Source: Escherichia phage JEP7. From it: a stretch of 52,936 nt of DNA. The position numbers were made by a program, and so were the translations under genes. Position 1 is the stretch's first letter; each line of letters opens with the position of its first letter. This document shows, piece after piece, positions 3,908 to 52,936 of the stretch. A model generated the notes under the pieces. That model was not told the DNA's origin. It made no database searches and was given only the letters and a program-made list of their open reading frames with translations. The stretch is taken from the sequence record MT764207.1; one strand, written 5' to 3'.

Positions 3908-4885
3908 ATGTCACTGTATATTTTTAACGAACAAGTACGTTCTACCGCCACCGAACTGGTCGACCAGGACGTACAGAAGTTTAACGAAGCTTCTGCTGGT
4001 ACCCTTATCCTGGGTAACCAGTACGTAATCGGTGATTACGTTGAGCAGGCAATGTGGCAGCTGGTTGACGGTATCGCTACTCGTCGTAACGCTTACGCAG
4101 GCACCAACAAAGTTGATGCGCAGACTCTGGGCCAGATTCTGGACCGCTCTGTTAAGATCGACGGCCGTGTTGGTCCTCTGAACATTACCGGTACTATGAT
4201 GCGTCGCATCGGTGCAGGTGATACTGAACCAGCAGCTGTTGTTGCTGCACAGGCTTCTGCTGCGATGTTCCAGGATTACCTGAACACCACTGCTGCATGT
4301 CTGGTAGCTGCTATCGGTGCAAACGCTGATGTTGTTCTGGACGTAACTGCAGGCTCTGGTGCTGCTGCAAACATCACCATGCAGAACCTGAACAAAGTCA
4401 ACGCGAAGATGGGTGACCGTTCTCAGCAGATTCGTGCGTACATCATGCACTCTACTGCGTTCCACTCCCTCATCGACCAGGCTATCAACAACACAGAACA
4501 CCTGTTCCAGATTGGTGACCTGAACGTGTACAAAGACTTCCTGGGTCGTCGTTATGTCGTTTCCGACATCCCGGCTCTGGTTGATGGCGCCGGTGCTTCC
4601 GCTAAGTACCGCACTCTGGGTCTGACCCCGTCTGCTGCAATCGTTCAGGTCGGCGGCCTGTACGACATGGTTACCTCCGAGCAAACCGGTGGTGAAAACA
4701 TCCTGCGTCAGATGCAGGGTGAATACGACTTCAACGTGTCGCTGAAAGGCTACAGCTGGGTCGGTCACAAAGCTGGTCAGTCTCCGACTGATGAAGACCT
4801 GGCTGCTCAGGCTTCCTGGTCTAAAGTTGCAACTTCCAACAAAGACACCGCTGGTGTTATGTTGCTGGCTAAGTCTGCAATCTAA
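3908..4885 (+). CDS. major capsid protein (putative)
   Basis: 325 aa, follows scaffold gene by 3 nt; strong intrinsic terminator immediately downstream; assignment by synteny. Confidence 0.6.
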   Translation: MSLYIFNEQVRSTATELVDQDVQKFNEASAGTLILGNQYVIGDYVEQAMWQLVDGIATRRNAYAGTNKVDAQTLGQILDRSVKIDGRVGPLNITGTMMRRIGAGDTEPAAVVAAQASAAMFQDYLNTTAACLVAAIGANADVVLDVTAGSGAAANITMQNLNKVNAKMGDRSQQIRAYIMHSTAFHSLIDQAINNTEHLFQIGDLNVYKDFLGRRYVVSDIPALVDGAGASAKYRTLGLTPSAAIVQVGGLYDMVTSEQTGGENILRQMQGEYDFNVSLKGYSWVGHKAGQSPTDEDLAAQASWSKVATSNKDTAGVMLLAKSAI

Positions 4886-41943: not shown

Positions 41944-44452
41944 TATTCTCGGTCTGAAATACTTTAAGCCAGAAGGGATTCCCCAAGTCTTCAAAGATAT
42001 GAAGCGCTGGGCTATCTTTGAGCTAACGTACGAAGACGAGACTCTTGAAGTTCAATCCAAACCGAAGAAACCTGCAAGAGCGCCATCAGGCCGTTCCTTC
42101 AGCACAACAGTGCCTGAAGAGTGGATGACTTTCGACGACGCCCTGACACGTTGTATTCGCAATCGTGAAATGAAGATTAAAGCTGTACAGGGTAATATCA
42201 CCTTTGTGCCGGCTTTGGTTGTTCCTCGCCAGTGGTACTTTGTTGACCTGGACAACCATGAAGATAACCCAGACATTGAAGCTACCCACAAGGCGATAAT
42301 TGAGGGGACCCGTGGTGCTTATGCCGAGACGTCAATCTCTGGCAAAGGGCAACACATTGCAATCCCTTTACCCTGGACTGCAGCAACATCTAAAGAGAAA
42401 GACGAACAGCTGGACATCAAAATCCAGAAGGCTGAGATGTTCCTGGTAATGACGGGTAACGTGTTGAGTGAGTTCAATGCTAATCCTGTTTCAGCCCGTG
42501 AATGGCATGCAGCAATTGAGAAGTTCTTTCTTGAATCAAGCGCACCTGACATTGATGTTGAGTTTGAGCAAGACGAAGACCGTGGCGAAGAGTATGACAA
42601 AGAGCTGTACGAACAGCTAGCCGACAATACTCGCTGGGCTTTAGAACACTATCTGAATGAGCATGCACCAGACGGTGTTGGTGTGAGTAACGACGGTTCT
42701 GAACGTTTAAGCCGTATCCTAAAAGACTTGCTTCGTGTAACCCGTAACTATGAAGTTACACAACGCATCTTTATGGCCAGCAAAGCTGCAGCATACGAAG
42801 GTCGTCGTCCTAGCCGACATAACTTGTCTGTTGATAAGTACCATCAGTGGTTCAGTCGTGTCGGTAAGACTGTGCTGAAAGAGATGCAACGTGATGGCTT
42901 ATTCGTTAAGACCAAGTTTGCTCTTGACATCAACAAAGAGTTAACCAAGAATTCTGGTGTCTCCCTGGCTGAGAATGTTGAGTTCAAAGTCAACGACGAT
43001 ATTCTGCCATCTGATGTATTCGTCAGGACGGCTCCGTCCGGGTTTAAACGGCTTATTGCTGAGATACAGGATAACATATCTCCTGCTAACAGGGTTAACG
43101 ACTATGCCATCGGCACAGCTCTTAACATCCTGAGCAACTGCGCTGGTCGCAAGTATGTTTGTCCAGTAGGCGGTCATGCTAACTTCCTGGTAACCAACAT
43201 CATTCTTGTGGGTGGTTCATCAATCGGTAAATCGTTGTATACTGAGATGTTCCCACAAATCCAGGCAAGCTTACCTGACACATCGCCTATCAGCCTTAAT
43301 CGTATTCCAAGGGAACAGACTTTTGCAACCAGGACGTTTGCTGAACTGATGTCCAACCCGTCATACCATTCAGTACAGTTGTTCTATCCTGAATTTGGTC
43401 TGGCTTTAGGTTCAGGCTTACGCATGAATCCTAACAACCCGGACAACTTTCAGAAAGCTCTGATGGACGCTTCAACCAAGCGTAAGGTTGGTGGTATACT
43501 GACAGGTATCAAACGTGCTAATGCTGACAATGATGTCAAGACAGTAAGCGAACCGTGTTACTCTATCCTGGGTGACTCCACTCAAGAGCTTATTCTTGAC
43601 AACACCCGGAAGCAAGACTTCTCAAGTGGCTTTTTGCCCCGCTTCCTGTTCATCCCGAACTATGAACGAGCGGAGTTTGCCAAACCTGAGAAGGTAGGAC
43701 GTCGCCAGCAGATTCGCCGTACTCAATTCTCCAAAGAGCTGATTGAGAAGCTGGAAGCAATCGCTTATGTGAATGCTATCCCGCCTAACGGTAAACTAAG
43801 GCATGACCCGATTCCTATTTACGACGAATCGGACGATGATGACTTCCTGTATGAGTACCAGTGCAATATTAATGACATGCGCAAGTATTACAGGGACAAC
43901 GAAGTAGCATCCGCCTTTGTGGGCCGAATGGGTGAGTATGTATTCAACATAGCAGCACTGATTGGCTTACTCGACAACTGGGATGCTCCTGTAATGACCA
44001 GGGACAACATCGAATGGGCTTACAAATATGTTCTTCGTTGTATAACCGCCTGGGTCAATAACACAAGCAGGATAGTCGCACCACCAACTACCAACGCCGA
44101 AGTAGTGGACGGCTTCCTAAAAGTCTACAGGGACATTTTGGCCCTTTACACCAAAAGAGGATGGTCTGGCATTGTCAAGCATTATCCCGAAGGTGTTGTA
44201 AGAAGTATCCGGGAAGAACACCTCCAGATGAATGGTTTAAGCATATATGCTATTCGTCAGTCTTTGAGCTGGTTTAAATCGAATTACGGTTTTAACATCA
44301 CAGCTAATAACAAAGTCATTGACGGTATGCTCCAGGATATGATTGACCAGGACTATTTAGCAGTACAAGTATATAAGCCCACAAGAGGCCGATCTGCTAA
44401 CATTTACTGCCTGACGGAGCGAGGATATGACACTGCTAAGAAGTTAAAATAA
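41918..44452 (+). CDS. DNA primase / SF3 helicase fusion (D5/P4-type)
   Basis: 844 aa; C-terminal Walker A GGSSIGKS in a helicase-like domain; N-terminal region with acidic DxD-like motifs (FVDLDNHED); replication-block position. Confidence 0.65.
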   Translation: MTMTSQPSDILGLKYFKPEGIPQVFKDMKRWAIFELTYEDETLEVQSKPKKPARAPSGRSFSTTVPEEWMTFDDALTRCIRNREMKIKAVQGNITFVPALVVPRQWYFVDLDNHEDNPDIEATHKAIIEGTRGAYAETSISGKGQHIAIPLPWTAATSKEKDEQLDIKIQKAEMFLVMTGNVLSEFNANPVSAREWHAAIEKFFLESSAPDIDVEFEQDEDRGEEYDKELYEQLADNTRWALEHYLNEHAPDGVGVSNDGSERLSRILKDLLRVTRNYEVTQRIFMASKAAAYEGRRPSRHNLSVDKYHQWFSRVGKTVLKEMQRDGLFVKTKFALDINKELTKNSGVSLAENVEFKVNDDILPSDVFVRTAPSGFKRLIAEIQDNISPANRVNDYAIGTALNILSNCAGRKYVCPVGGHANFLVTNIILVGGSSIGKSLYTEMFPQIQASLPDTSPISLNRIPREQTFATRTFAELMSNPSYHSVQLFYPEFGLALGSGLRMNPNNPDNFQKALMDASTKRKVGGILTGIKRANADNDVKTVSEPCYSILGDSTQELILDNTRKQDFSSGFLPRFLFIPNYERAEFAKPEKVGRRQQIRRTQFSKELIEKLEAIAYVNAIPPNGKLRHDPIPIYDESDDDDFLYEYQCNINDMRKYYRDNEVASAFVGRMGEYVFNIAALIGLLDNWDAPVMTRDNIEWAYKYVLRCITAWVNNTSRIVAPPTTNAEVVDGFLKVYRDILALYTKRGWSGIVKHYPEGVVRSIREEHLQMNGLSIYAIRQSLSWFKSNYGFNITANNKVIDGMLQDMIDQDYLAVQVYKPTRGRSANIYCLTERGYDTAKKLK

Positions 44453-44463
44453 GTAAGTAAATC

Positions 44464-44506
44464 AAGGGCTTGGGTAATTGTAAAAATCCTAAGCCCTTAT
44501 TTTTTA
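44464..44506 (+). terminator. rho-independent terminator
   Basis: AAGGGCTTGGG / CCTAAGCCCTT stem with 13-nt loop followed by ATTTTTTAAG directly after primase-helicase stop. Confidence 0.6.
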
Positions 44507-44599
44507 AGCTTATTTTACAAACTGATTAATATTTAAACTATAATTAAATATATGGGCTCTAAGAGTATGATTTTATTACTCTTTTACAAATCATAATAT

Positions 44600-44860
44600 A
44601 TGAGCTCCTTATAAAAGATTAAGGGGGTAAAAAAGGGGGATACAAGTACCGGATAAAGGGGGTATATATTTATTTATTATTATTATTATTATTATATATT
44701 ATTAATTATATTAGAAGTAATAAAAACAGCTACTTAGAGGCGTCTATATGTATGATCCGGTTTATCTCTTTATTAATATCAGAACCGGATGAAAAAAATT
44801 TACGCCGGCGAAAAAAATAAAAAAGCCGGATTGATAAATAAATCTGTAGACGTTTACACT
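44600..44860. repeat. AT-rich iteron/microsatellite region (candidate replication origin or regulatory hub)
   Basis: three AAGGGGG(T/A)A copies (44622, 44634, 44656); (TTA)7 microsatellite about 44676-44697; repeated CCGGAT/ATCCGG/GCCGGC motifs each followed by A-runs. Confidence 0.4.
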
Positions 44861-44882
44861 GTAAAAAAGATGTGCTACAATA
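44854..44882 (+). promoter_or_regulatory. sigma70-like promoter (TTTACA-N17-TACAAT)
   Basis: upstream of gene starting 44936. Confidence 0.45.
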
Positions 44883-44935
44883 TTTATCAATGTTGCTGAT
44901 TACCAAAACTTTGAATTGTATACGAGGCTGAATAA

Positions 44936-45367
44936 ATGGTTAATATAAGACAGAAAGGACAGAACTTTGAGCGTAAAATGGCTAAGAAGTTTAATAGCTC
45001 GTTCGGATTAACTGTTGAGCGCAATCTTCAACAGTCTATTAATGGCGGGGATGACTTGCTGGGTGTGCCGTTTTTCAGTGTTGAACTGAAGAAGCACAAT
45101 ACCAAGTCTATCGGAACATGGTGGAGACAGTGTGCGGCATCGGCAAAGGCTCAGAACAAGATGCCGGTACTGATATACGAACTACCAAGAAAACAGCCTA
45201 CCGTGGTGATGAATAAGGCTGATGTGATTGACTGTTTTCCAAGTGGCACGACTTTTAACGAGGCATCGAACCGCCTCTTTGTGGGTCTAGTAGAATTAAC
45301 ATGGGAACAATTTTGCCGGGTCTACAACTATTACGTTGCGCCCGGCACTCAATATCACGTCAATTAA
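44936..45367 (+). CDS. putative PD-(D/E)XK-type nuclease (Holliday-junction-resolvase-like)
   Basis: 143 aa; motif GGDDLLGVPFFSVELKKH consistent with D...ExK nuclease core; weak call. Confidence 0.3.
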   Translation: MVNIRQKGQNFERKMAKKFNSSFGLTVERNLQQSINGGDDLLGVPFFSVELKKHNTKSIGTWWRQCAASAKAQNKMPVLIYELPRKQPTVVMNKADVIDCFPSGTTFNEASNRLFVGLVELTWEQFCRVYNYYVAPGTQYHVN

Positions 45368-45549
45368 TCTTGTTTCAGCTCGTCACAAATGACACGCTGA
45401 TTTTTGGCAGGGATAATACCAAGATTCAGTAAGGTGTATGGACTATCGGCGGCACATTGTTCAACGGTAGTCCATTCAGTTTTGGATTCAACAATTTTGT
45501 AACTACAATCATGAGTAGCCACACATGTTGCCAGGATTAAGCCAATCAC
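45364..45549 (-). CDS. hypothetical small protein
   Basis: 61 aa, GTG start; hydrophobic N-terminus with LATC lipobox-like motif but no charged n-region. Confidence 0.25.
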   Translation of the reverse strand: MIGLILATCVATHDCSYKIVESKTEWTTVEQCAADSPYTLLNLGIIPAKNQRVICDELKQD

Positions 45550-45725
45550 AAGTAATCGCCTTCAACCAGGAACTCAAACAGTTGGTTGTAAACGTTGCAA
45601 CCTTTAGCGAAAGAGCTTTCAGCAGGTTTACCATCGCGGACGATCATCATATACTCACCGCCATGAATATCAACCCAATATTGCATGCCACCTTTGACCG
45701 TGTTACGTTGTAAGAATTTAAACAT
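45546..45725 (-). CDS. hypothetical small protein (not in ORF track)
   Basis: 59 codons; ATG overlaps upstream stop (TAATG); AAGGAG RBS; translation MFKFLQRNTVKGGMQYWVDIHGGEYMMIVRDGKPAESSFAKGCNVYNQLFEFLVEGDYL. Confidence 0.35.
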   Translation of the reverse strand: MFKFLQRNTVKGGMQYWVDIHGGEYMMIVRDGKPAESSFAKGCNVYNQLFEFLVEGDYL

Positions 45726-45970
45726 TATTTGCTCCTTATTCCAAGTTTATTCAATAACCAAATTGTCATGTCAACCCAGGTTAACGGTACAGTTTTCGGG
45801 GGTTGATAATTCCAGCAGCTTGCAGTTCTTTGTATTTCTGCTTGGCGCCGCTCCGCTTCGCGTAATACCGCATCGTCAGAAGTGCCGGCAGAAAAAAGAT
45901 CGGTAACACCAGATAAATCGCGTTGATTAACACGTCGAGCAATGTCATATAAATCATCCTTAGAAAACAT
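45725..45970 (-). CDS. hypothetical protein
   Basis: 81 aa; start overlaps the 3' end of the 41-codon ORF upstream. Confidence 0.3.
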   Translation of the reverse strand: MFSKDDLYDIARRVNQRDLSGVTDLFSAGTSDDAVLREAERRQAEIQRTASCWNYQPPKTVPLTWVDMTIWLLNKLGIRSK

Positions 45971-46085
45971 AAGCCAATACCATAAGAATTATCAGAAAGA
46001 TCCCAACCAGCTTCCTCATAGCCCGACCTTCAGCATATGCAGGATTCACAACAGAATACTCAACAACATGTTTACATCGGACCAT
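45960..46085 (-). CDS. hypothetical small membrane peptide (not in ORF track)
   Basis: 41 codons; GGAGG RBS 4 nt before ATG; C-terminal hydrophobic helix KLVGIFLIILMVLAYVF. Confidence 0.3.
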   Translation of the reverse strand: MVRCKHVVEYSVVNPAYAEGRAMRKLVGIFLIILMVLAYVF

Positions 46086-46197
46086 AAGGCCTCCACTTGT
46101 GGGTTAATTCAAGCATGAGGACTTTCATCAAATCCTCAGGATTGAATTAATTACCAGCTTTTAATCAAGCCCTGTCAGCGCCAGGACTTGACTAATA

Positions 46198-46398
46198 TCA
46201 CTCTATCATTACCTGAACTACTATTATACACTCTTTATTGAAGCGAGTAAACACTTTTCCACCATTAGTGCGTTTAGCCCCAGATTTTAGAGCTGACTGG
46301 CACCAGATATGCCACTCCTCAACTGTCAAGAATTTTTGCTCAGCTTTGGGTGGCAATCCATGGGCAAGGTCTACCGTCGTAAATTTGACTAGTGGCAT
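46198..46398 (-). CDS. hypothetical protein
   Basis: 66 aa from ATG 46398 (track ORF starts at a GTG at 46401). Confidence 0.3.
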   Translation of the reverse strand: MPLVKFTTVDLAHGLPPKAEQKFLTVEEWHIWCQSALKSGAKRTNGGKVFTRFNKECIIVVQVMIE

Positions 46399-46787
46399 CA
46401 CTTGACCTCAAACTTTGACTCGTCGTATTCCGGATCAGTCACGTCCCGGGTCGCACAATTTTTGATTGCTTCCCAGTAGCGTTGGGCATCATCACCATCG
46501 ACGTAAACCGTCCAGTGGCCATAACCACCTTCAAATCTGTCCCAGGCTTGTTCCCAGACTTTGCCATCTTCCAGCTTGTACCAAGTTGGACGACTGTCAA
46601 ACTCACGAATTGGATGGTACCCCATCAAGGGATTCATCAGGTCGATAATGTCTTCCCGACTAATCTCCTGGTTCTCCCACAACACCGTCATGAATTGCTC
46701 AAACTTGAAGGCGTTTGGCAGAACTTTGAGTACTTTACCGTCACAATATACGGTATAGGTGCCATCTTCGCATTTTGCACTGTACAT
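46398..46787 (-). CDS. hypothetical protein
   Basis: 129 aa from ATG 46787 with AGGAGAG RBS; preceded by conserved leader and dyad. Confidence 0.35.
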   Translation of the reverse strand: MYSAKCEDGTYTVYCDGKVLKVLPNAFKFEQFMTVLWENQEISREDIIDLMNPLMGYHPIREFDSRPTWYKLEDGKVWEQAWDRFEGGYGHWTVYVDGDDAQRYWEAIKNCATRDVTDPEYDESKFEVK

Positions 46788-46855
46788 GTTTCTCTCTCCT
46801 ATTGATATAATTTCAATCATGAACTATCACAACTTTGGATAGTTCATTGTTGAAA

Positions 46856-47029
46856 CTATACTAACTTTGTTGCGATCTGAATTGTCAGCCGGAAATCTTC
46901 CATCAAGTTATCAAACTCTTTGGAACCACCAACAGCATCAGATATTTGATCTTTCACAATTTGGGCATTTGATTCCAGTAATTCAATCAGGTGCGCCAAT
47001 TCGTCTTCAGTCAATTTCAAATCTTTCAT
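46856..47029 (-). CDS. small acidic helical protein, paralog family member A
   Basis: 57 aa from ATG 47029; N-terminus MKDLKLTEDELAHLIELLE similar to the products of 47289-47447 and 48144-48317. Confidence 0.35.
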   Translation of the reverse strand: MKDLKLTEDELAHLIELLESNAQIVKDQISDAVGGSKEFDNLMEDFRLTIQIATKLV

Positions 47030-47283
47030 AATGCATCCACCCAAGCCATAACTTTTGCCAGTCTTACAACGTCTTCATGGTCCCGCTCGCCATCAGAAAA
47101 TTCGCTGGCGATGATATCCATAATTGACGCCAGATTCATGTTGATGATGTAGGCGTGTTGGCGCACTTCATCAATTCCTGAATCTATCACCAGTTCCGCA
47201 AATTCTTGTGAACCTTCATCCCATTCAGCCCAATACTGCTCAGCATAAAAGTCCAGTTCTTTTTTCATCTCAATATCAGTCAT
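47026..47283 (-). CDS. highly acidic small protein
   Basis: 85 aa, many D/E and aromatic residues; AGGAG RBS. Confidence 0.35.
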   Translation of the reverse strand: MTDIEMKKELDFYAEQYWAEWDEGSQEFAELVIDSGIDEVRQHAYIINMNLASIMDIIASEFSDGERDHEDVVRLAKVMAWVDAL

Positions 47284-47288
47284 TTTGA

Positions 47289-47447
47289 TTACTCCTCAGA
47301 ACCTGAAAATTTGTCATCAATGGACTCAACAATATAATCAAGAGTTGAAGTGTGAGAACTATCAGAAAAAGTGCCCATCTTCTCCAGCTCAATCATCATA
47401 TCCCGTAAAGCCATTGCCTGGTCTTTGGTCAGTTTAATTTTAAGCAT
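47289..47447 (-). CDS. small acidic helical protein, paralog family member B
   Basis: 52 aa from ATG 47447 with CAGGAGAG RBS; MLKIKLTKDQAMALRDMMIELE. Confidence 0.35.
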   Translation of the reverse strand: MLKIKLTKDQAMALRDMMIELEKMGTFSDSSHTSTLDYIVESIDDKFSGSEE

Positions 47448-47511
47448 GTTTCTCTCCTGTTGATTGTGAATAATTTCAATTGATGGCACTACTTGAGTGC
47501 CATCTCAAAAA

Positions 47512-48048
47512 TTACTCTTCAGTTTCTTGGGTTTCAGGTTTTTGACCAGTTACTGACTTGCCATCAGTCACTTTACCAGATTTTACATCATTCCGGTAGT
47601 ATGACATATATGACTGGATAACTCTTTTGGCTTTGATGTCATCCGCCTCCATCCCACAGGCTTTCATGGCATCAACTAGGGCCAGTTTGGAATCTTCCTT
47701 ATCCATCAGGTTATAATCCTTAAACACCAGATAACAAGTGTCCTTGGTTGATGGACCAGATGACTTCCGGGTCCCGCCATTGGAAGATCTTGATGCCACA
47801 ACTTTGACCTCTTCAACTTCCAGTTGGTTCAGTTCATCAAACAATGCCTTGACCAACACTTCTTTGGAGTCCTTGACAGTTGCAGAACTTTCATCATTAA
47901 GGGACTTAATCATCTTAATGATCTGGTTATTGGCAAAGTACTGAAGACTATCCATCTGCACTACAATAGTCCCAAGACTTTCAGTAGTCAGACCAGATTT
48001 TACAGACTCAACAGAAAAGGCGGAAGTCAGGTAAACATAGTTAGTCAT
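47512..48048 (-). CDS. hypothetical protein
   Basis: 178 aa from ATG 48048 with GAGGA RBS; Ser/Lys/Glu-rich. Confidence 0.35.
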   Translation of the reverse strand: MTNYVYLTSAFSVESVKSGLTTESLGTIVVQMDSLQYFANNQIIKMIKSLNDESSATVKDSKEVLVKALFDELNQLEVEEVKVVASRSSNGGTRKSSGPSTKDTCYLVFKDYNLMDKEDSKLALVDAMKACGMEADDIKAKRVIQSYMSYYRNDVKSGKVTDGKSVTGQKPETQETEE

Positions 48049-48143
48049 TGATGTATCCTCATTGATAGAATTTTTGATAAGTGTCAATCCTTGACAAGTA
48101 AGTCCAATCATGAGGACTTTTACCAAGTCCCCATTGTTGGAAA

Positions 48144-48317
48144 TTACTTCAACTTATCCAGAATTGATTGGAGTAACTTGACCCTCACTTCCTGGTCTTT
48201 GACATCCCTTCCACTCTCCCTGTCATATTCCAACAGGTCACTTTCCATAAATAAAGTAGTGTCCAATTGGTCAACCAATAATTCCAGTTCTTCTTGGGAC
48301 AATTCTAAAACTTTCAT
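48144..48317 (-). CDS. small acidic helical protein, paralog family member C
   Basis: 57 aa from ATG 48317 with AGGAGT RBS; MKVLELSQEELELLVDQLD. Confidence 0.35.
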   Translation of the reverse strand: MKVLELSQEELELLVDQLDTTLFMESDLLEYDRESGRDVKDQEVRVKLLQSILDKLK

Positions 48318-48321
48318 CTTA

Positions 48322-48468
48322 TTACTCCTGATATTTAATAACTTGGGATTGGATAAAGTCAACACAATCTTCCACATCCATTGACTCAAAGTCTGGAACT
48401 GGACCATTGTTTATATTGACACACCAAAGCCCTTCATTGGTATCATACCAAAGTGTGTAGTTGTCCAT
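48322..48468 (-). CDS. hypothetical small protein
   Basis: 48 aa from ATG 48468 with GAGGTGA RBS; first gene of leftward early block. Confidence 0.3.
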   Translation of the reverse strand: MDNYTLWYDTNEGLWCVNINNGPVPDFESMDVEDCVDFIQSQVIKYQE

Positions 48469-48834
48469 CTTAATAGTCACCTCTTGTACTAGTTTCCAGT
48501 TGTGACTACTGTTACCAATAGTCACTGGTTGAAACTATTACTAGTGTTACTATCAACAAGAAACATGTTACCAGATTGTTAAAGAGCAAAAGGTACCATT
48601 GACATCTACCAGATGTACCTGTTGACTGGTTAAGTACTACCTACCCAAATTAAACCATACTAATACCCTCCAGACCAGTTGACTGGTCACTTGGTCATCA
48701 CATTCAATAAATATATAATAGTCCAATCCCTCTTGATTGTACACCTTATATTTGTAAGTTTATGCAAGTTTTTAGAAATGATAATCACTTGCGATTGAGA
48801 GTGGTTCTCATATGCAATTGATATAGTTTCACAT

Positions 48835-48914
48835 GTAATTACTCACTTCAAAATGGTCGGCGGGGGTTATAGTAACGTAGGGGTGCCACTTAAAGGAGCC
48901 GGCGAAATTATTTC
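48835..48914. repeat. GC-rich direct repeat, copy 1
   Basis: TAATTACTCACTTCAAAATGG-TCGGCGGGGGT...GGGTGCCAC...AGGAGCCGGCGAAATT; imperfect copy of 49010-49090. Confidence 0.5.
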
Positions 48915-49009
48915 TAAAAATATAATTTCAATCTGAATTATAGACGCTTTGTACTATAACGGCCGAAGTAGTTCACCCGGTAATTGTACCAATCATAATA
49001 GTTACCAGA

Positions 49010-49090
49010 GTAATCATTTCAATCGAAATAGGTGCGGCGGGGGTAATTTCGCAAGGGTGCTACCCGCCAGGAGCCAGCGGAATTTTTTTA
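49010..49090. repeat. GC-rich direct repeat, copy 2
   Basis: TAATCATTTCAATCGAAATAGG-TGCGGCGGGGGT...GGGTGCTAC...AGGAGCCAGCGGAATT followed by a T-run. Confidence 0.5.
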
Positions 49091-49319
49091 TTTTTTGGTA
49101 TTTTTGCCTTATCAGGACCAATCATCATCAGATTGATACAATAGGAGCTAACCTTTTGCCTAACACAATAATAAGTGAAGCCCCTCTAAAATTTTTTTTT
49201 ATATTTTTCGGAAATTGTGTAGACACTCACTAAAAAGTGGTGTACTTTCTCTCCTCCACGCGCTATCATTAATGTGAATCATCAAACGGCCTCACGGTCT
49301 CCTACTTGTGGGTAACATT

Positions 49320-49805
49320 ATGAAAATTGTTCAATTAGAGCCATATCCGCCTCAATTGGCTATCGTTTGCAGCGAAAAAGAGCACGAAGAGCTCCAAAAA
49401 CTGATGGATTTGCCTGATTTTGGCAACTGGAATGACCGAGAAACGCGTACTGCATCTACCTTTACGTTCTCTCGCGTTAACTATCCGTACCTGTTAATCG
49501 TCGTCGAGCTGTACCACCCGGACGACCTGAAGTACAACACCATTTCCCACGAAGGCATTCACGTAATGTCGTCGCTGATGAACTATGTCGGCCTTAAATA
49601 CGACCCAGAAAACGATGAATGGTACGCATATCAGCATGATTTCATCGTAAATGCCATTTGTAAGGCCCATGACGAGTACATTGAGCGCCAAAAAACGCCA
49701 AAAACTAAGCCAAAAATCGAAACAGGCAACCATCCTGTGATACTGCCACAAGACGTTATGAACTCGCTTTTGACTGACACTACTGGGGACTTTTTAGGTG
49801 ATTGA
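49320..49805 (+). CDS. HExxH-motif protein (putative zinc metallopeptidase-like)
   Basis: about 161 aa from ATG 49320 (track starts at a GTG at 49308); HEGIH motif (NTISHEGIHVMSSLM). Confidence 0.3.
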   Translation: MKIVQLEPYPPQLAIVCSEKEHEELQKLMDLPDFGNWNDRETRTASTFTFSRVNYPYLLIVVELYHPDDLKYNTISHEGIHVMSSLMNYVGLKYDPENDEWYAYQHDFIVNAICKAHDEYIERQKTPKTKPKIETGNHPVILPQDVMNSLLTDTTGDFLGD

Positions 49806-50307
49806 AATACTCCGTAAGTATTTTCGCTATGAGCCAGACACAGGCTTATTGTACAGAATACGACAGGCTAAAACAGGTAAACGAGTCGATTTGAGCCAGC
49901 CTGTAGGCACGGAACATAGCGGTTATCTGTTTTGCAGTGTACCAGAAGGCATTCGTACAAAGCCTGTGCACGTAATCTGCTATGCTTTACAAACTGGCGA
50001 ACTACCTGAAGTAGTTGACCATAAAGATGGTAACGGGCTTAACAACAAATGGTACAACCTTCGTAACGGTACTCAAACGCAGAACCGGTATAACTCAAAA
50101 GTCAAATCAAGTAACACAACAGGCGTAAAAGGCTTGTTTGAGTACGCACCAAAAGGTCGTAAACCTCTTTGGAAAGCCAGCATTAAAGTAGATGGAGTCA
50201 ATCATCAGAAGTATTTCCCTTATACTGATAACGGTAGGCTGGAAGCTATTGAGTGGCTTGACGAACAAAGACATCAACATGGCGAATTCGCCAACAAAGG
50301 AAATTAA
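49798..50307 (+). CDS. HNH homing endonuclease with AP2-like DNA-binding domain
   Basis: 169 aa; HNH core VVDHKDGNGLNNKWYNLRNGTQTQN; C-terminal GVKGLFEYAPKGRKPLWKASIKVDGVNHQKYFPYTDNGRLEAIEW resembles AP2 domain. Confidence 0.75.
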   Translation: MIEILRKYFRYEPDTGLLYRIRQAKTGKRVDLSQPVGTEHSGYLFCSVPEGIRTKPVHVICYALQTGELPEVVDHKDGNGLNNKWYNLRNGTQTQNRYNSKVKSSNTTGVKGLFEYAPKGRKPLWKASIKVDGVNHQKYFPYTDNGRLEAIEWLDEQRHQHGEFANKGN

Positions 50308-50308
50308 T

Positions 50309-50983
50309 GTGATAAACCTAATCTTCGCAATGGGCCAAAATGGGGAATTCGGGTTATCTCCGGAGTTTATGAAGCATCAGGTTGACTCGTGCAAGACCAT
50401 GGAAGAGGTTCGTGCGCTTCCTAAGTCTGGTCTGCCCTGGAAATGTCCGTCAGACATGCTCTTTTTCAGGACTATGACTAATTCAGTTGCGACAGAACCA
50501 GGCTATAATGCGTATCAGCAACTACGTGGACAGTTCCCAAGTGACCAGTTGCGAAACATGATAGCAGATGTAACGGTAAAAATGGTCGGACATAGTGTAC
50601 TGTTAGCCGGTCGTAACACGTATATGACTATGAGTCTGCCTATGTCAGCCCACAGAATACTGCTGCCGGTATCTCGCCAGATTATGGCTTCAGAAGGCTA
50701 CAATAATTTGGGTGAGATGGCAGCAGACCTTGAATCCAGAGGTACTGACGTCTGGATTGTAGGCGGTGCCGAGTTGATACTTTCGGCCCTTGAAGAGCAT
50801 GCAAAAGACTTACTCCGTATCGACAACATGTTTATCAGTACGATCAAGCAATCAGGTCCAAGTGATATTTTAATGGATCGTAGCAAATTAATGATGTACA
50901 TTGATAGCGACTTCACTTATAATGATGAATATGTTGATAACAAACAAGTTCTGATACAACGGTACAGGAGTTTACACGAATGA
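50309..50983 (+). CDS. dihydrofolate reductase
   Basis: GTG 50309 with AAAGGA RBS (in-frame ATG also at 50279); DHFR-like order of motifs: INLIFAMGQNGEFG, LPW, DMLFF, VLLAGRNTY, VWIVGGAELI. Confidence 0.75.
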   Translation: MINLIFAMGQNGEFGLSPEFMKHQVDSCKTMEEVRALPKSGLPWKCPSDMLFFRTMTNSVATEPGYNAYQQLRGQFPSDQLRNMIADVTVKMVGHSVLLAGRNTYMTMSLPMSAHRILLPVSRQIMASEGYNNLGEMAADLESRGTDVWIVGGAELILSALEEHAKDLLRIDNMFISTIKQSGPSDILMDRSKLMMYIDSDFTYNDEYVDNKQVLIQRYRSLHE

Positions 50984-51486
50984 ACATCATAATCGAGGGT
51001 CCCGATAATGCTGGTAAAAGTACACTTATTGAGTTCCTTAAATCTCATACTGGCCGCAATGTTATTCATAATACTGTTGATAAAGACCCCGAATCGGTCA
51101 TGGCTAAACAGGCCAAAGAAAACGCGTTGGAAGGCAATTGCATTTATGACCGTAGCGCTGTTATATCTGAGTATATCTATTGTCTGGTTCTTCAACGTAC
51201 GCCTGTCATCAATATTAATGTATCACATGTAGCAGATATGTGTGACAACGCCATCGTTATCTTTTGTATGCCGCCTGTTGAAAAGGTACTGGCAACTACA
51301 AAAGACGAAATGCCTGGTGTTGTGGAAAATCTTGAGGCGTTATACAATCAGTATGACAACCTCATTGACGAGCTGGTTATGATGAGTAAGCAGTTCTTCA
51401 TTTACGACTGGACTGTTGAAGAAGACGGTCCTGAAGCAGTTCTCGAATACATCAACGAACGTATTAATAAGGAGTGGAACAAATGA
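50980..51486 (+). CDS. P-loop deoxynucleoside monophosphate kinase (thymidylate-kinase-like)
   Basis: 168 aa; N-terminal Walker A IIIEGPDNAGKST; CAGGAG RBS; adjacent to DHFR. Confidence 0.55.
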   Translation: MNIIIEGPDNAGKSTLIEFLKSHTGRNVIHNTVDKDPESVMAKQAKENALEGNCIYDRSAVISEYIYCLVLQRTPVININVSHVADMCDNAIVIFCMPPVEKVLATTKDEMPGVVENLEALYNQYDNLIDELVMMSKQFFIYDWTVEEDGPEAVLEYINERINKEWNK

Positions 51487-52175
51487 GCCCAGTATACAAT
51501 AGCACAGTCACGCTGTCAGCAACCGTAGGAGACGTCAACAAGACTGTTACTGTGGGTTCAACTAACCCGAACCTGTCAGGTGACGACCTGCTGCGCCTGG
51601 CCAAACGTGCTCTTGAAGATAACGAAGTGACTGGTACTGAAGGCGTCAGCATTGAAATTAACGTCGAAGGATGTCCACACAGCATCAGTATTGCGACTTC
51701 TGGCGATGAAATTGAAAAGTTCAACGATGAGCTGGAATATCGTACTGGTGAGATGTTCAGCAGTGCTCTAAACTGGTACTTGTGCAAGGCCTCAAACTAC
51801 GCTGGCGCTCCTATGTCAGACCGTATGTTAGCTGATATGTCAGCTCGCGAAATTGCTAAAGGCTGGGCGCATGTACAGATGCTGCAGGAGCATATCTGCA
51901 AGCTGGAAAGCTGCAATAAAGATGCGTCTGAGCTTATCACTGCCTATAAACGGCAGATTACCGACCTGCAGCAACTGATGGGCAAGCGTGCTGAAGAATA
52001 TGAGGCTGAGATTCGTAGCCTTAACGGTACAGCTGTTGCTAATAACCGTGCTTTCAGCGAAGAGCGTAAAGCGCTTATTGCCCAGCGTGACGCTGAAAAA
52101 CGTCGTGCAGACGACCTGGCAGATCGTCTCAACTTTATCCGTAAGCATATGGATGCTATGGAAGGGGTAATCTGA
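51483..52175 (+). CDS. hypothetical protein
   Basis: 230 aa from ATG 51483 (overlaps kinase stop, GGAGTGG RBS); C-terminal coiled coil. Confidence 0.3.
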   Translation: MSPVYNSTVTLSATVGDVNKTVTVGSTNPNLSGDDLLRLAKRALEDNEVTGTEGVSIEINVEGCPHSISIATSGDEIEKFNDELEYRTGEMFSSALNWYLCKASNYAGAPMSDRMLADMSAREIAKGWAHVQMLQEHICKLESCNKDASELITAYKRQITDLQQLMGKRAEEYEAEIRSLNGTAVANNRAFSEERKALIAQRDAEKRRADDLADRLNFIRKHMDAMEGVI

Positions 52176-52465
52176 TGGACTTGTTCGATATGGTCGAACA
52201 TCCTGAAGTAAACGGCTTAGCCTCCGCCAAGCCGTTTAGCTGGGATGAGTTCGTAGCAGGCAAACCTGCTGTAACCCACAACGGGCAGATTGCATATTAC
52301 GGAGGCCATAGCGAACATCCGATGTGCACTCACCTGTACAACGCTATAACAACCATAACCGATGAAAACGTTATTAAATACGGAAAAGAGGTAATGCCTT
52401 TTCTTGTAGATGAGCGCGGTTACTTCGAAGGTAAATGGTTCCCGTTTCTGGTAGAAATGGCCTAA
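52175..52465 (+). CDS. hypothetical protein
   Basis: 96 aa; ATG overlaps upstream stop. Confidence 0.3.
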   Translation: MDLFDMVEHPEVNGLASAKPFSWDEFVAGKPAVTHNGQIAYYGGHSEHPMCTHLYNAITTITDENVIKYGKEVMPFLVDERGYFEGKWFPFLVEMA

Positions 52466-52581
52466 AAACCGGATAAATATAAAGGCGTCTAAGCTAGTTC
52501 TTCATCTATATAAGCTACTTATTCGCCTTTCTACTGTAGACTTTCTCATCATCTCTCTAGACACTTCATTTTTATATTCTG

Positions 52582-52610
52582 TTTACTTACTTCGCGTAAC
52601 TCGTTATAAT
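52582..52610 (+). promoter_or_regulatory. sigma70-like promoter (TTTACT-N17-TATAAT)
   Basis: -35 52582-52587, -10 52605-52610, upstream of 52643 gene. Confidence 0.5.
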
Positions 52611-52642
52611 CCCGACTATCCGGATTAACGAGGACGACACCC

Positions 52643-52933
52643 ATGGCAAAACCGAAAAAAACCCGTGAGGCAACAGAAGAACTGTTGGCCACGATGCGAC
52701 GTATCCAGCTGGACCCGTTGGAAGTTATGCAACGGGCTATCATACTTGCTGAACGTGAAGACGACTACAAAGCAATGATGGATGGTGCACTGGGCGTTAT
52801 GCCGTACATGTATCCTAAGCTGAAAGAATCCGTTGTCAAAGCAGACATCGACCAGAACCTGTCTGGTAATGGTGTCAACCTGAACATTACAATAGGCGAC
52901 CAGAAAGTGGTAGATACTACTGGGGAAGAGTAA
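52643..52933 (+). CDS. terminase small subunit (putative)
   Basis: 96 aa with basic N-terminus (MAKPKKTREATEE); last gene of window, so directly upstream of terL if the genome is circularly permuted; GAGGA RBS. Confidence 0.4.
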   Translation: MAKPKKTREATEELLATMRRIQLDPLEVMQRAIILAEREDDYKAMMDGALGVMPYMYPKLKESVVKADIDQNLSGNGVNLNITIGDQKVVDTTGEE

Positions 52934-52936
52934 TAA

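What the first reader, a model, noticed from the sequence alone, without database searches (positions are those of the whole stretch)
48526..49307. 780-bp divergent control region dense in palindromes and repeated TTGACTGG motifs
This region separates the leftward small-gene block (first gene starts at 48468) from the rightward genes (from 49320). It contains the IR GACCAGT-TG-ACTGGTC (48673-48688), the IR ACATCT-ACC-AGATGT (48602-48616), TTGACTGGT twice (about 48622 and 48679), a GTTGA...TCAAC dyad around two ACTAGT sites (48540-48575), and the paired GC-rich repeats reported separately. It is probably the main early regulatory hub.
Basis: seen in the sequence. Interest (0 to 1): 0.5.

Follow-up and report, generated by a model that had tools for sequence, protein, structure and literature searches.

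The report
Phage genome end plus early promoters
This 0.8-kb gene-free stretch of a Rosemountvirus phage genome holds the promoter and folded RNA leader of a block of small early-type genes, the point where the packaged DNA physically ends (the inner edge of a 4.3-kb terminal repeat), and the promoter of the next gene block, which makes it an ordinary though nicely resolved example of known phage architecture.

Summary
The window is a complete Rosemountvirus genome. It is colinear with phage vB_EcoM_PiR; the region is about 97.5% identical.

**Observation.** The motifs exist, but the picture drawn from them is only partly right.
- Short palindromes are not denser than chance.
- The named palindromes and TTGACTGG copies sit in the least conserved 100 bp of the region.
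- They fade out in more distant relatives.

**What 13 relatives conserve.**
- A leftward sigma-70-type promoter, TGTACA-17-TATTAT, at 48743-48715.
- A 240-nt leader. Its roughly 90-nt hairpin (48466-48562, minus strand) shows compensatory changes and buries the ribosome-binding region of the first leftward gene.
- An unexplained, nearly invariant block at 48752-48843.
- Two GC-rich repeats.
- A rightward promoter, TAGACA-17-TACTTT, at 49220-49248.

- Two relatives' records place the right edge of a long direct terminal repeat inside GC repeat 2, at window 49075|49076.
- A third relative's published repeat length fits the same cut positions.
- Restriction mapping of S144 puts a physical end in the same gene gap.
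- The left end maps to 44807, so the predicted repeat is 4,269 bp.

**Verdict.** This is a composite of an early-operon control region and a genome-end or packaging module. It is most like the untranslated region at the inner edge of phage T5's terminal repeat. Interest is modest.

The parts
44807..49075 (+). Predicted direct terminal repeat (4,269 bp). It is present once in this assembly and twice in virion DNA. The finding region covers its last 550 bp.
   Evidence: The vB_SalM_Sz record starts at GGCGAAAAAAATAAAAAAGCCGG (= window 44807) and ends at ...CCAGGAGCC (= window 49075), giving a 4,263-bp repeat. fHy-Eco03 has a 3,699-bp repeat with ends at the homologous positions. The AEV23 paper reports 3,915 bp, which is exactly the distance between the homologous cut motifs in S144. 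Accuracy is about +/-8 nt, because the LPSEYT and AEV23 records are linearised 7-8 nt beyond the cuts.
48466..48562 (-). Long imperfect RNA hairpin in the leader of the first leftward gene. Its base pairs the Shine-Dalgarno-to-AUG spacer.
   Evidence: MFE is -34 kcal/mol, z = -4.74, and 0 of 200 shuffles fold as well. Across 11 relatives, 6 of its 20 pairs show changes on both sides. It is 98.6% paired when read as minus-strand RNA, against 91.4% when read on the plus strand, with 18 versus 2 G.U cells. RNAalifold recovers it.
48575..48587 (-). Invariant leader motif GCTCTTTAACAAT, followed by the near-invariant ACATGTTT. Its function is unknown.
   Evidence: It is identical in all 13 relatives. 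It is unique in the genome at up to 1 mismatch.
48592..48619 (-). On the minus strand it is followed by UUUUGCUCUUU. It is a weak terminator or attenuator candidate.
   Evidence: In Loughboroughvirus and the fHy clade the outer stem changes to GACAC/GTGTC. SOI901 has the inner stem CCTG/CAGG. Four of the 5 outer pairs show changes on both sides. Stability is modest (-11 kcal/mol, z = -0.57). The U run is lost in rivia and BP63.
48617..48687 (+). The two 14-mers ACCTGTTGACTGGT (48617-48630) and ACCAGTTGACTGGT (48674-48687). The second forms the palindrome 48673-48688. Both belong to the ACCAGW cluster.
   Evidence: See (D7). The first copy is kept in 9 of 13 relatives. The second is exact only in window, PiR and Sz; yarpen keeps the palindrome with a 1-nt insertion.
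48715..48743 (-). P_L, a leftward sigma-70-type promoter: -35 TGTACA, a 17-nt spacer, -10 TATTAT. The predicted start is near 48708.
   Evidence: It is found at the same alignment column in all 13 relatives. The -35 is 6/6 invariant, the -10 reads TATxAT with A2 and T6 invariant, and only 2 of 17 spacer columns are invariant. The consensus scan also found it.
48691..48719 (+). P_R1, a candidate rightward promoter TTGGTC-17-TATAAT. Its -10 overlaps that of P_L.
   Evidence: It is the highest-scoring site in the window (11.5 bits). It passes the scan threshold in only 9 of 13 relatives and is absent from SE13, rivia, BP63 and KE25.
48752..48843 (.). The most conserved non-coding block: TGCAAGT-type heptamers (two direct, 10 bp apart; the first reads TGTAAGT in the window), ACTTGCG inverted, TTAGAAATGATAATCA and ATTGATATAGTT. 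Its function is unknown. It may be a protein-binding module for packaging or replication.
   Evidence: Between 48769 and 48843, 17-20 of every 25 columns are invariant across three clades. There is no conserved sigma-70 site. The sequence is unique in the genome. The inverted heptamer is broken without compensation in fHy and KE25.
48856..48910 (+). GC-rich repeat 1: a G box CGGCGGGGGTTAT followed by the cut-type box AGCC|GGCGAAATTATTT.
   Evidence: See (D3, D8). CCGGCG is invariant across the clades examined and the unit is gapless in all nine aligned sequences. CCGGCGAAA occurs exactly only here and at the left genome end. There is no compensatory base-pairing.
49033..49098 (+). GC-rich repeat 2: a G box CGGCGGGGGTAAT, then ...CAGGAGCC|AGCGGAATTTTTTTATTTTTT. 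The right physical genome end falls at 49075|49076.
   Evidence: The consensus RNA structure is worth only -1.4 kcal/mol. Repeat 1 and repeat 2 are similar at P = 0.002.
49220..49248 (+). P_R, the rightward promoter TAGACA-17-TACTTT for the gene starting at 49320. It lies in unique DNA, 145 bp outside the repeat. An overlapping alternative is TGTACT-17-TATCAT, with its -10 at 49264-49269.
   Evidence: Both hexamers are invariant in 13 of 13 relatives, inside the invariant run CTAAAAAGTGGTGTACTTT.

Best explanation
The gap is a composite of three modules. No single 'hub' accounts for it.

**1. Early-operon control, 48469-48743, inside the terminal repeat.**
- Host RNA polymerase starts at P_L, near 48708, and transcribes leftward into a 240-nt leader.
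- The leader carries small, clade-variable hairpins.
- It also carries an invariant motif, GCUCUUUAACAAU.
- Immediately before the first gene there is a roughly 90-nt imperfect hairpin. This hairpin pairs the stretch between the ribosome-binding site and the AUG.
- I infer that the hairpin controls translation or processing of the first small gene. Possible routes are RNase III-type cleavage or unfolding, as in the lambda N leader or the T7 early leader.
- The operon itself is a set of small, low-GC genes of unknown function carried in the repeat. One homologue is toxic to E. coli. I infer that this is a host-takeover set present at both genome ends.

**2. Genome-end module, 48744-49075.**
- It holds a nearly invariant 90-bp block and two GC-rich repeats.
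- Each repeat has a G box (GGGGGTWAT) about 38 nt upstream of a cut-type box (GCC|RGCG followed by an A/T run).
- The packaged DNA ends inside repeat 2, at 49075|49076. This step is shown in relatives.
- The left end, at 44807, has the same core (GCC|GGCG followed by an A-rich run) and G boxes about 150-185 nt upstream.
- I infer that these elements are recognition and cleavage signals used by the terminase to make the fixed ends and duplicate the 4.27-kb repeat.

**3. Promoter P_R, 49076-49319, in unique DNA.**
- This stretch holds the invariant promoter P_R.
- It also holds a short 5'-UTR hairpin for the rightward metabolic gene block.
For: **Identity of the phage**
-.

**Terminal repeat boundary**
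- fHy-Eco03 annotation and paper, based on PhageTerm plus restriction digests.
- Ends of the Sz record.
- The AEV23 PhageTerm length of 3,915 bp equals the distance between the homologous motifs in S144.
- The junction motifs are conserved in six clades.
- CCGGCGAAA occurs exactly only at 44805 and 48899.
- Four of the genome's eight GGGGGTW sites sit at the two boundaries, and the -184 position is kept in relatives.

**Promoters**
-.

**Leader structure**
-.

**Non-coding status and selection**
- Frame-breaking indels occur among relatives.
- The non-coding part of the repeat aligns to fHy-Eco03 over 72% of its length. The neighbouring small ORFs align over 48% and the rightward genes over 35%.

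**Toxicity**
- Gp05 of fHy-Eco03, encoded in the repeat, is toxic.

**Transcription machinery**
- No phage RNA polymerase is reported for this group.
Against: - No reads, transcript maps or binding data exist for this phage. The ends are inferred by homology.
- Two other records (LPSEYT, AEV23) are linearised 7-8 nt beyond the cut positions, so the exact base is uncertain.
- P_L has only a 4/6 match at its -35, and its start site is 240 nt from the gene.
- Hairpin T is thermodynamically unremarkable, so the terminator or attenuator reading is weak.
- The actual cut box in repeat 2 is the least conserved of the three. Repeat 1, which is invariant, is not a mapped end.
- Similarity between the left end and repeat 1 is borderline beyond the shared 9-mer (P = 0.05).
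- The role of the 48752-48843 block is a guess.
Confidence: 0.6

Rival explanations
1. The region is a divergent early control hub. Its palindromes and TTGACTGG/ACCAGW motifs are operator sites bound by a phage or host regulator that switches the two gene blocks.
For: - ACCAGW is strongly clustered here: 6 copies against 0.41 expected, the densest window in the genome.
- The 14-mer repeat is non-random.
- The palindrome at 48673-48688 lies at +20 to +35 of P_L and just upstream of the -35 of the candidate rightward promoter P_R1. The -10 of P_R1 overlaps that of P_L, so mutual exclusion is possible.
Against: - The motifs fall to zero in SOI901 and KE25, while the promoters, the long hairpin and the invariant blocks persist.
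- Palindrome density is at chance level.
- TTGACTGG elsewhere in the genome lies within the long plus-strand gene block and is not a recurring regulatory site.
- At those positions other clades carry different hairpins, so pairing is conserved and sequence is not.
Confidence: 0.2
2. The nearly invariant AT-rich block 48752-48843, with its repeated TGCAAGT heptamers next to a promoter, is the origin of replication. The GC repeats are accessory sites.
For: - It is the highest non-coding conservation in the region.
- It has iteron-like heptamers, two direct and one inverted.
- The cumulative GC-skew minimum is at about 49-50 kb.
- A promoter lies adjacent.
- The primase/helicase gene lies about 4 kb away.
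Against: - The skew minimum coincides with the switch in transcription direction, so it is confounded.
- There are no DnaA boxes.
- Only three heptamers are present, and TGCAAGT is not enriched in the genome.
- Nothing ties the block to replication proteins.
Confidence: 0.12
3. The conserved untranslated module at the inner edge of the repeat works like phage T5's injection stop signal. DNA entry pauses after the repeat, the repeat-borne small genes act, and then the rest of the genome enters.
For: - The topology matches that of T5 Repeat Region 3. T5's region is a 1.2-kb untranslated stretch, mostly inside the left repeat, that overruns 270 bp into unique DNA. It is more conserved than the repeat's ORFs and is rich in repeats and palindromes.
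- Here the gap is 851 bp, with 607 bp inside the repeat and 244 bp outside, and it is better conserved than the small ORFs.
- The repeat is 7.5% of the virion DNA, against 7.9% for T5's first-step transfer.
- A toxic small gene lies in the repeat.
Against: - No DnaA boxes occur within 48377-49272.
- PHROGs assigns no known function to the nine leftward proteins tested, so no A1 or A2 homologue was identified.
- This is a myovirus with a different DNA-delivery apparatus.
- There is no experimental hint of two-step entry.
Confidence: 0.06
4. The GC-rich repeats with their T runs are small structured RNA genes or intrinsic terminators.
For: - Each is a GC-rich segment followed by a T-rich run.
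- In the window, repeat 2 can form GGCGGG/CCCGCC.
Against: - No Rfam family matches the repeats even at E up to 5; the only weak hit lies outside the region at 48082-48169.
- No tRNA or tmRNA gene is found.
- The consensus structures are worth only -1.4 and -3.2 kcal/mol, with 0 compensatory pairs in repeat 1.
- The GGCGGG/CCCGCC stem is broken without compensation in PiR and SE13.
- The terminator scan finds nothing there.
Confidence: 0.04

Closest known systems
Phage T5 left terminal repeat 'Repeat Region 3' / injection stop signal region (Davison, bioRxiv 10.1101/866236)
   Same: - It is a large untranslated region at the inner edge of a long direct terminal repeat that spills into unique DNA.
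- It is full of direct and inverted repeats.
- It is more conserved among relatives than the repeat's small ORFs.
- It lies next to a block of small pre-early genes.
   Different: - The region here is 0.85 kb, against 1.2 kb in T5. The repeat is 4.3 kb, against 10 kb.
- There are no DnaA boxes.
- There is no sequence similarity to T5.
- The phage is a myovirus.
- Two-step DNA transfer is not known for this group.
Published terminal repeats of close relatives: fHy-Eco03 (3,699 bp), AEV23 (3,915 bp), and the S144 physical end 'between cluster E and A'
   Same: - The locus is homologous.
- The junction motifs are the same.
- The gene order is the same.
   Different: - Those papers report only the repeat length or an approximate end position.
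- They do not describe the junction motifs, the G boxes, the promoters or the leader hairpin.
- S144 was interpreted as having short repeats.
Phage T7 early region (A1-A3 promoters followed by RNase III site R0.3 before gene 0.3) and the lambda N-leader RNase III hairpin. This comparison rests on my own knowledge and was not tested here.
   Same: - A host-polymerase promoter is followed by a long leader.
- A long imperfect hairpin lies immediately upstream of the first early gene and overlaps its translation start region.
   Different: - RNase III cleavage is not shown here.
- There is a single promoter, not three.
- There is no sequence similarity.
T7-type concatemer-junction packaging signals (fixed ends, terminal repeat duplicated during packaging). 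This comparison rests on my own knowledge.
   Same: - The termini are fixed.
- The terminal repeat is direct.
- Conserved non-coding sequences lie next to both cut sites.
   Different: - The repeat is about 25 times longer than T7's 160 bp.
- The bipartite G box plus GCC|RGCG cut box, and an extra uncut copy (repeat 1), have no described T7 counterpart.

Membership tests
Genome with long direct terminal repeats and fixed ends | The same sequence is present at both ends of the virion DNA. | tested here: met
   This is met in relatives. The last 40 nt of the Sz record recur at 4224-4263 of its start. fHy-Eco03 is annotated with left and right repeats of 3,699 bp. The window assembly holds one copy only, so for this phage it is an inference by homology.
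Genome with long direct terminal repeats and fixed ends | The ends fall at the same homologous positions in independent isolates. | tested here: met
   The left end is GCC|GGCG and the right end is CC|RRC inside GC repeat 2 in Sz and fHy-Eco03. The S144 motif distance of 3,915 bp equals the PhageTerm value for AEV23. The LPSEYT and AEV23 records break 7-8 nt away.
Genome with long direct terminal repeats and fixed ends | A two-fold read-coverage step and read-start pile-ups at the boundaries. | not testable with these tools
   No sequencing reads are available for the window phage.
Sigma-70 promoter (P_L, P_R) | -35 and -10 hexamers separated by a 16-18 nt spacer, conserved while the spacer varies. 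| tested here: met
   P_L has 6/6 invariant positions in its -35, a -10 reading TATxAT, and 2/17 invariant spacer positions. P_R has both hexamers invariant. Both are present in 13 of 13 relatives.
Sigma-70 promoter (P_L, P_R) | A mapped transcription start. | not testable with these tools
   No transcript data were found in the literature searches.
Intrinsic terminator (hairpin T, 48592-48619, minus strand) | A stable GC-rich stem immediately followed by a U run. | tested here: inconclusive
   The stem shows compensatory changes. However, stability is only -11 kcal/mol with z = -0.57, there is a 7-nt bulge, the U run is interrupted, and the U run is lost in rivia and BP63. The terminator scan did not call it.
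RNase III-type processing hairpin in a phage early leader | A long (over 20 bp) imperfect hairpin between the promoter and the first gene. | tested here: met
   It is a hairpin of about 90 nt at -34 kcal/mol with z = -4.7. It shows covariation and a strand-specific G.U excess.
RNase III-type processing hairpin in a phage early leader | Cleavage by RNase III. | not testable with these tools
   This needs an rnc+ versus rnc- comparison or an in vitro cleavage assay.
T5-type injection stop region | An untranslated repeat-rich region at the inner edge of the terminal repeat that overruns into unique DNA. | tested here: met
   Of the gap, 607 bp lie inside the repeat and 244 bp outside. The T5 description was read.
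T5-type injection stop region | Paired DnaA boxes (TTWTNCACA). | tested here: not met
   There is no match at up to 1 mismatch between 48377 and 49272.
T5-type injection stop region | Two-step DNA transfer that depends on repeat-encoded proteins. | not testable with these tools
   This requires infection experiments.
   The palindrome at 48673-48688 is exact only in window, PiR and Sz, with a 1-nt-insertion variant in yarpen. Other clades carry unrelated hairpins at that position. ACCAGW copies fall to 0 in SOI901 and KE25.
Known RNA families (Rfam 15) | A covariance-model match. | tested here: not met
   The only hit is a chance-level miRNA match outside the region, with E = 0.06 and 27 bits against an 85-bit threshold. 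No tRNA or tmRNA gene was found.

The most novel reading that the evidence does not exclude
A small myovirus uses a T5-like strategy. The conserved untranslated module at the inner edge of its 4.3-kb terminal repeat comprises the invariant block plus the G-box/cut-box repeats. In this reading the module serves two roles. It is the terminase's end-forming signal. It is also a pause or hand-over signal during DNA entry, so that the repeat-borne small toxic genes act as 'pre-early' genes before the rest of the genome arrives.
Probability: 0.06. Interest if true: 0.75.

Novelty: new member of a known kind. Interest (0 to 1): 0.33.

Why it matters
- **Genome annotation.** Most Rosemountvirus and Loughboroughvirus records are deposited without their terminal repeat and with arbitrary start points. 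Knowing that the physical ends lie at GCC|GGCG (44807) and inside GC repeat 2 (49075|49076) lets these therapeutic-candidate genomes be oriented and annotated correctly. It predicts a 57.2-kb virion DNA.
- **Experimental handles.** It identifies a testable bipartite end signal. It also separates real control elements (P_L, the leader hairpin, P_R) from incidental palindromes. That gives clear targets for engineering or for studying the toxic repeat-borne early genes.
- **Limits.** None of this overturns current understanding. It fits known phage designs.

Tried and rejected
- **Rfam.** The E-value scan of 47500-50500 gave nothing relevant.
- **tRNA and tmRNA.** The scan found none.
- **Palindrome density.** It is not above chance, so density was dropped as evidence.
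- **RNA structure in the GC repeats.** There is essentially none and no covariation, so the sRNA and terminator readings were dropped.
- **Genome-wide recurrence of motifs.** TTGACTGG, GCTCTTTAACAAT, TTAGAAATGATAATCAC and TGCAAGT are not recurring promoter-type motifs.
- **DnaA boxes.** None occur in the region.
- **Repeat 1 as a duplicate of the left end.** Similarity is borderline (P = 0.05) beyond the shared CCGGCGAAA, so this is not claimed.
- **Co-variation of GGCGCAA between the left end and repeat 1.** It is seen in fHy-Eco03 but does not hold in KE25.
- **Sigma-70 promoters inside the invariant block 48752-48843.** None is conserved. The PhagePromoter sites annotated in S144 map to non-conserved hexamers.
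- **Exact-pattern scan of IMG/VR.** It gave only two loci that duplicate GenBank phages.
- **PHROGs scan of nine leftward proteins and the first rightward protein.** No hit carries a known function, and two proteins had no hit at all.
- **Small ORFs in the gap.** This includes the 94-aa ORF at 48949-49233. They were rejected as genes because close relatives differ by 1-nt and other frame-breaking indels.
Full report
**Identity of the window**

The window is a complete Rosemountvirus genome.
- It is colinear with Escherichia phage vB_EcoM_PiR (OM313461, also 52,936 bp) at the same coordinates. Identity is 97.6% over 48300-49500 and 97.4% over the finding region.
- Over the last 10.6 kb there are 3.8% substitutions and no indels.
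- Sixty phage records carry a homologue of the finding region. They comprise Rosemountvirus (85-98% identity), Loughboroughvirus (about 76%), and a third clade of fHy-Eco03, SOI901 and KE25 with partial alignment.
- The region lies between a leftward block of small genes of unknown function and a rightward block. The last leftward start is the ATG at 48468. The first rightward start is the ATG at 49320.
- The GTG at 49308 used in the PiR annotation is not kept in frame in fHy-Eco03.
- The gap is non-coding. Its small ORFs are broken by 1-nt and other non-triplet indels among close relatives.

**Checking the observation**

- The GTTGA...TCAAC dyad is at 48528-48557 and holds one ACTAGT, not two.
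- Short perfect inverted repeats are not enriched. There are 4 against 2.5 +/- 2.0 in shuffles, and 26% of same-size genome windows hold as many.
- Two things are non-random. One is the 14-mer repeat that contains TTGACTGG. The other is a cluster of the hexamer ACCAGW in both orientations: 6 copies in 171 nt against 0.41 expected, the densest window in the genome.

**Comparison with relatives**

I aligned 13 relatives.
- The ACCAGW cluster shrinks from 6 copies to 0 in SOI901 and KE25.
- The second TTGACTGG and the palindrome at 48673-48688 exist only in the closest clade. Other clades have unrelated hairpins at that place.

**The leftward promoter and its leader**

A position-weight scan of all 13 sequences finds one leftward sigma-70-type site at the same alignment column in every sequence.
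- It has a -35 TGTACA (48743-48738), a 17-nt spacer and a -10 TATTAT (48720-48715). The -10 reads TATAAT or CATAAT in other clades.
- The -35 is invariant. The -10 keeps T-A-T-x-A-T. Only 2 of 17 spacer positions are invariant. That is the expected signature of a real promoter.
- The predicted start, near 48708, leaves a 240-nt leader.

The last 97 nt of the leader (48562 down to 48466) fold into a long imperfect hairpin.
- Its energy is -34 kcal/mol, with z = -4.7, and no shuffle out of 200 folds as well.
- The hairpin half-pairs the Shine-Dalgarno sequence. It fully pairs the spacer before the AUG (structure).
- I tested the 29 pairs I specified, 20 in this hairpin and 9 in hairpin T. They are 95% paired.
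  - Eleven pairs show changes on both sides, against 4.4 +/- 1.5 in column shuffles (0 of 500 shuffles reach 11).
  - With the partners slid by 1-3 columns, only 0-2 pairs show such changes.
- The long hairpin is 98.6% paired when read as minus-strand RNA and 91.4% when read on the plus strand. It has 18 G.U cells on the minus strand against 2 on the plus strand. This points to an RNA structure on the leftward transcript, not a DNA operator.

- Its outer stem GGTAC/GTACC becomes GACAC/GTGTC in two other clades.
- On the minus strand it is followed by UUUUGCUCUUU.
- It is only modestly stable (-11 kcal/mol, z = -0.6), and the U run is lost in rivia and BP63.
- I therefore rate a terminator or attenuator role as possible and unproven.
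- Just downstream of it on the leftward transcript lies the motif GCTCTTTAACAAT. It is invariant in all 13 sequences and unique in the genome. I cannot explain it.

**The rightward promoters**

- TAGACA-17-TACTTT (49220-49248) is invariant in all 13 sequences. It is embedded in the invariant run CTAAAAAGTGGTGTACTTT.
- An overlapping alternative is TGTACT-17-TATCAT.
- A strong-looking rightward site, TTGGTC-17-TATAAT (48691-48719), overlaps the -10 of P_L. It is missing in four relatives.

The physical right end of the genome falls inside this gap. Four lines of evidence agree.
- fHy-Eco03 is deposited with 3,699-bp direct terminal repeats found by PhageTerm and confirmed by restriction digests. 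The repeat ends at ...TTTAAGCCCC|GGCAAATTTTTT, inside the homologue of GC repeat 2. The genome begins |GGCGCAAAAAG.
- vB_SalM_Sz is 97.6% identical to the window here. Its record begins at GGCGAAAAAAATAAAAAAGCCGG (= window 44807) and ends at ...CCAGGAGCC (= window 49075). Its repeat is 4,263 bp.
- The AEV23 paper reports a PhageTerm repeat of 3,915 bp. The distance between the homologous cut motifs in its close relative S144 is exactly 3,915 bp.

For the window phage this predicts a repeat of 44807-49075 (4,269 bp) and a virion DNA of about 57.2 kb. The LPSEYT and AEV23 records are linearised 7-8 nt beyond the cut positions. I therefore give the cut as accurate to about +/-8 nt.

**Anatomy of the end module**

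- Both GC-rich repeats have a G box (CGGCGGGGGTWAT) about 38 nt upstream of a cut-type box. In repeat 1 the box is AGCC|GGCGAAATTATTT. In repeat 2 it is AGCC|AGCGGAATTTTTTT (D3 and D8). The two repeats are similar at P = 0.002.
- The left end has the same core in every clade: GCC|GGCG followed by an A-rich run.
- CCGGCGAAA occurs exactly only at the left end and in repeat 1.
- Four of the genome's eight GGGGGTW sites lie at the two boundaries, all on the plus strand. The G box about 184-193 nt upstream of the left cut is kept in six of the seven left flanks examined.
- The repeats show no conserved RNA structure.
- Repeat 1 is gapless across all clades, which suits a protein-binding DNA element.
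- Between P_L and repeat 1 lies the most conserved block of the gap, 48752-48843. Across 48769-48843, 17-20 columns of every 25 are invariant. It has TGCAAGT-type heptamers and no conserved promoter.
- I infer that the block and the repeats are terminase recognition and cleavage signals. A replication-origin role for the block cannot be excluded. The cumulative GC-skew minimum is near 49-50 kb, but that coincides with the switch in transcription direction.

**Selection on the non-coding DNA**

- The non-coding part inside the repeat aligns to the distant fHy-Eco03 over 72% of its length.
- The adjacent small ORFs align over 48%, and the rightward genes over 35%.
- In fHy-Eco03 the one clearly toxic protein of unknown function, Gp05, is encoded in the repeat's leftward block. 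Its gene aligns to window 45725-45970.
- All the leftward proteins that hit PHROGs fall in families of unknown function.

**Comparison with known systems**

- The closest analogue is the T5 left-repeat 'Repeat Region 3'. It is a 1.2-kb untranslated, repeat-rich stretch, mostly inside the repeat, that overruns 270 bp into unique DNA. It is more conserved than the repeat's ORFs and is proposed as the injection stop signal.
- The topology here is the same, with 607 bp inside the repeat and 244 bp outside.
- The defining DnaA boxes are absent, so I do not file this region as a member of that family.
- The arrangement of promoter, long leader and hairpin before the first gene recalls the T7 early leader and the lambda N leader. 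That comparison rests on my own knowledge and is untested here.

**Verdict**

There is divergent promoter activity, but the named motifs are lineage-specific leader features.
- Most of the gap is best read as the genome-end module of a long terminal repeat.
- This is a new member of known kinds. It is useful for annotating and engineering these phages and is not surprising.

Noticed in passing
window 44453-44806: The AT-rich spacer left of the left genome end (GC 0.35 in the 44-45 kb bin) has three features. It has three G boxes (AAGGGGGTAA, AAGGGGGATA, AAGGGGGTAT) at -184, -172 and -149 from the cut. It has an ATT/TAT microsatellite. It has CCGGAT copies on both sides of the cut. The -184 G box is conserved in most relatives.
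   Followed up: partly
window 44853-44881 (+): A near-consensus promoter, TTTACA-17-TACAAT, lies 46 nt inside the left genome end, upstream of the RusA-like resolvase gene (44936-45367). It is conserved in all clades examined.
   Followed up: partly
window 49288-49299 (+): A small hairpin in the 5'-UTR of the first rightward gene changes with compensation between clades. It is GGCC-UCAC-GGUC here, GGAC-UUCG-GUCC in fHy-Eco03, GAGGC...GCCUC in SOI901 and KE25, and GGAC...GUCC in Loughboroughvirus. This was read from the alignment and was not tested statistically.
   Followed up: no
window 49798-50307 (+): An ORF that PiR annotates as a homing endonuclease sits between the first rightward gene and the dihydrofolate-reductase-like gene. 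Relatives such as fHy-Eco03 have a different small gene there, which suggests a mobile insertion.
   Followed up: no
window 42300-52936 versus PiR (L001): The window and PiR have the same length and no indels over 10.6 kb, but differ by 405 substitutions in patches. Within the gap the differences are confined to 48810-49074. There the window carries the variants seen in yarpen and rivia, and PiR carries those of SE13 and BP63. This looks like recombination mosaicism among co-circulating relatives.
   Followed up: partly
L021 (LPSEYT record start) and L016 (AEV23 record start): Two other deposited records are linearised 7 nt beyond the right cut (AGCAAAA) and 8 nt beyond the left cut (GGCGGAAA). 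This could be an assembly artefact. It could also hint that the real ends are staggered by 7-8 nt.
   Followed up: partly
window 48921-48942 (+): A perfect 7-nt inverted repeat, TATAATT-N8-AATTATA, lies just after GC repeat 1. On the minus strand a conserved -10-like TATAAT/TACAAT (48942-48937) with a poor -35 is present in 12 of 13 relatives.
   Followed up: no
Relatives S144 and fHy-Eco03 (literature): Both papers report that the virion DNA resists all tested restriction enzymes except AT-only cutters. This implies an unidentified base modification. The GC-rich cut boxes would therefore be modified DNA in vivo.
   Followed up: no
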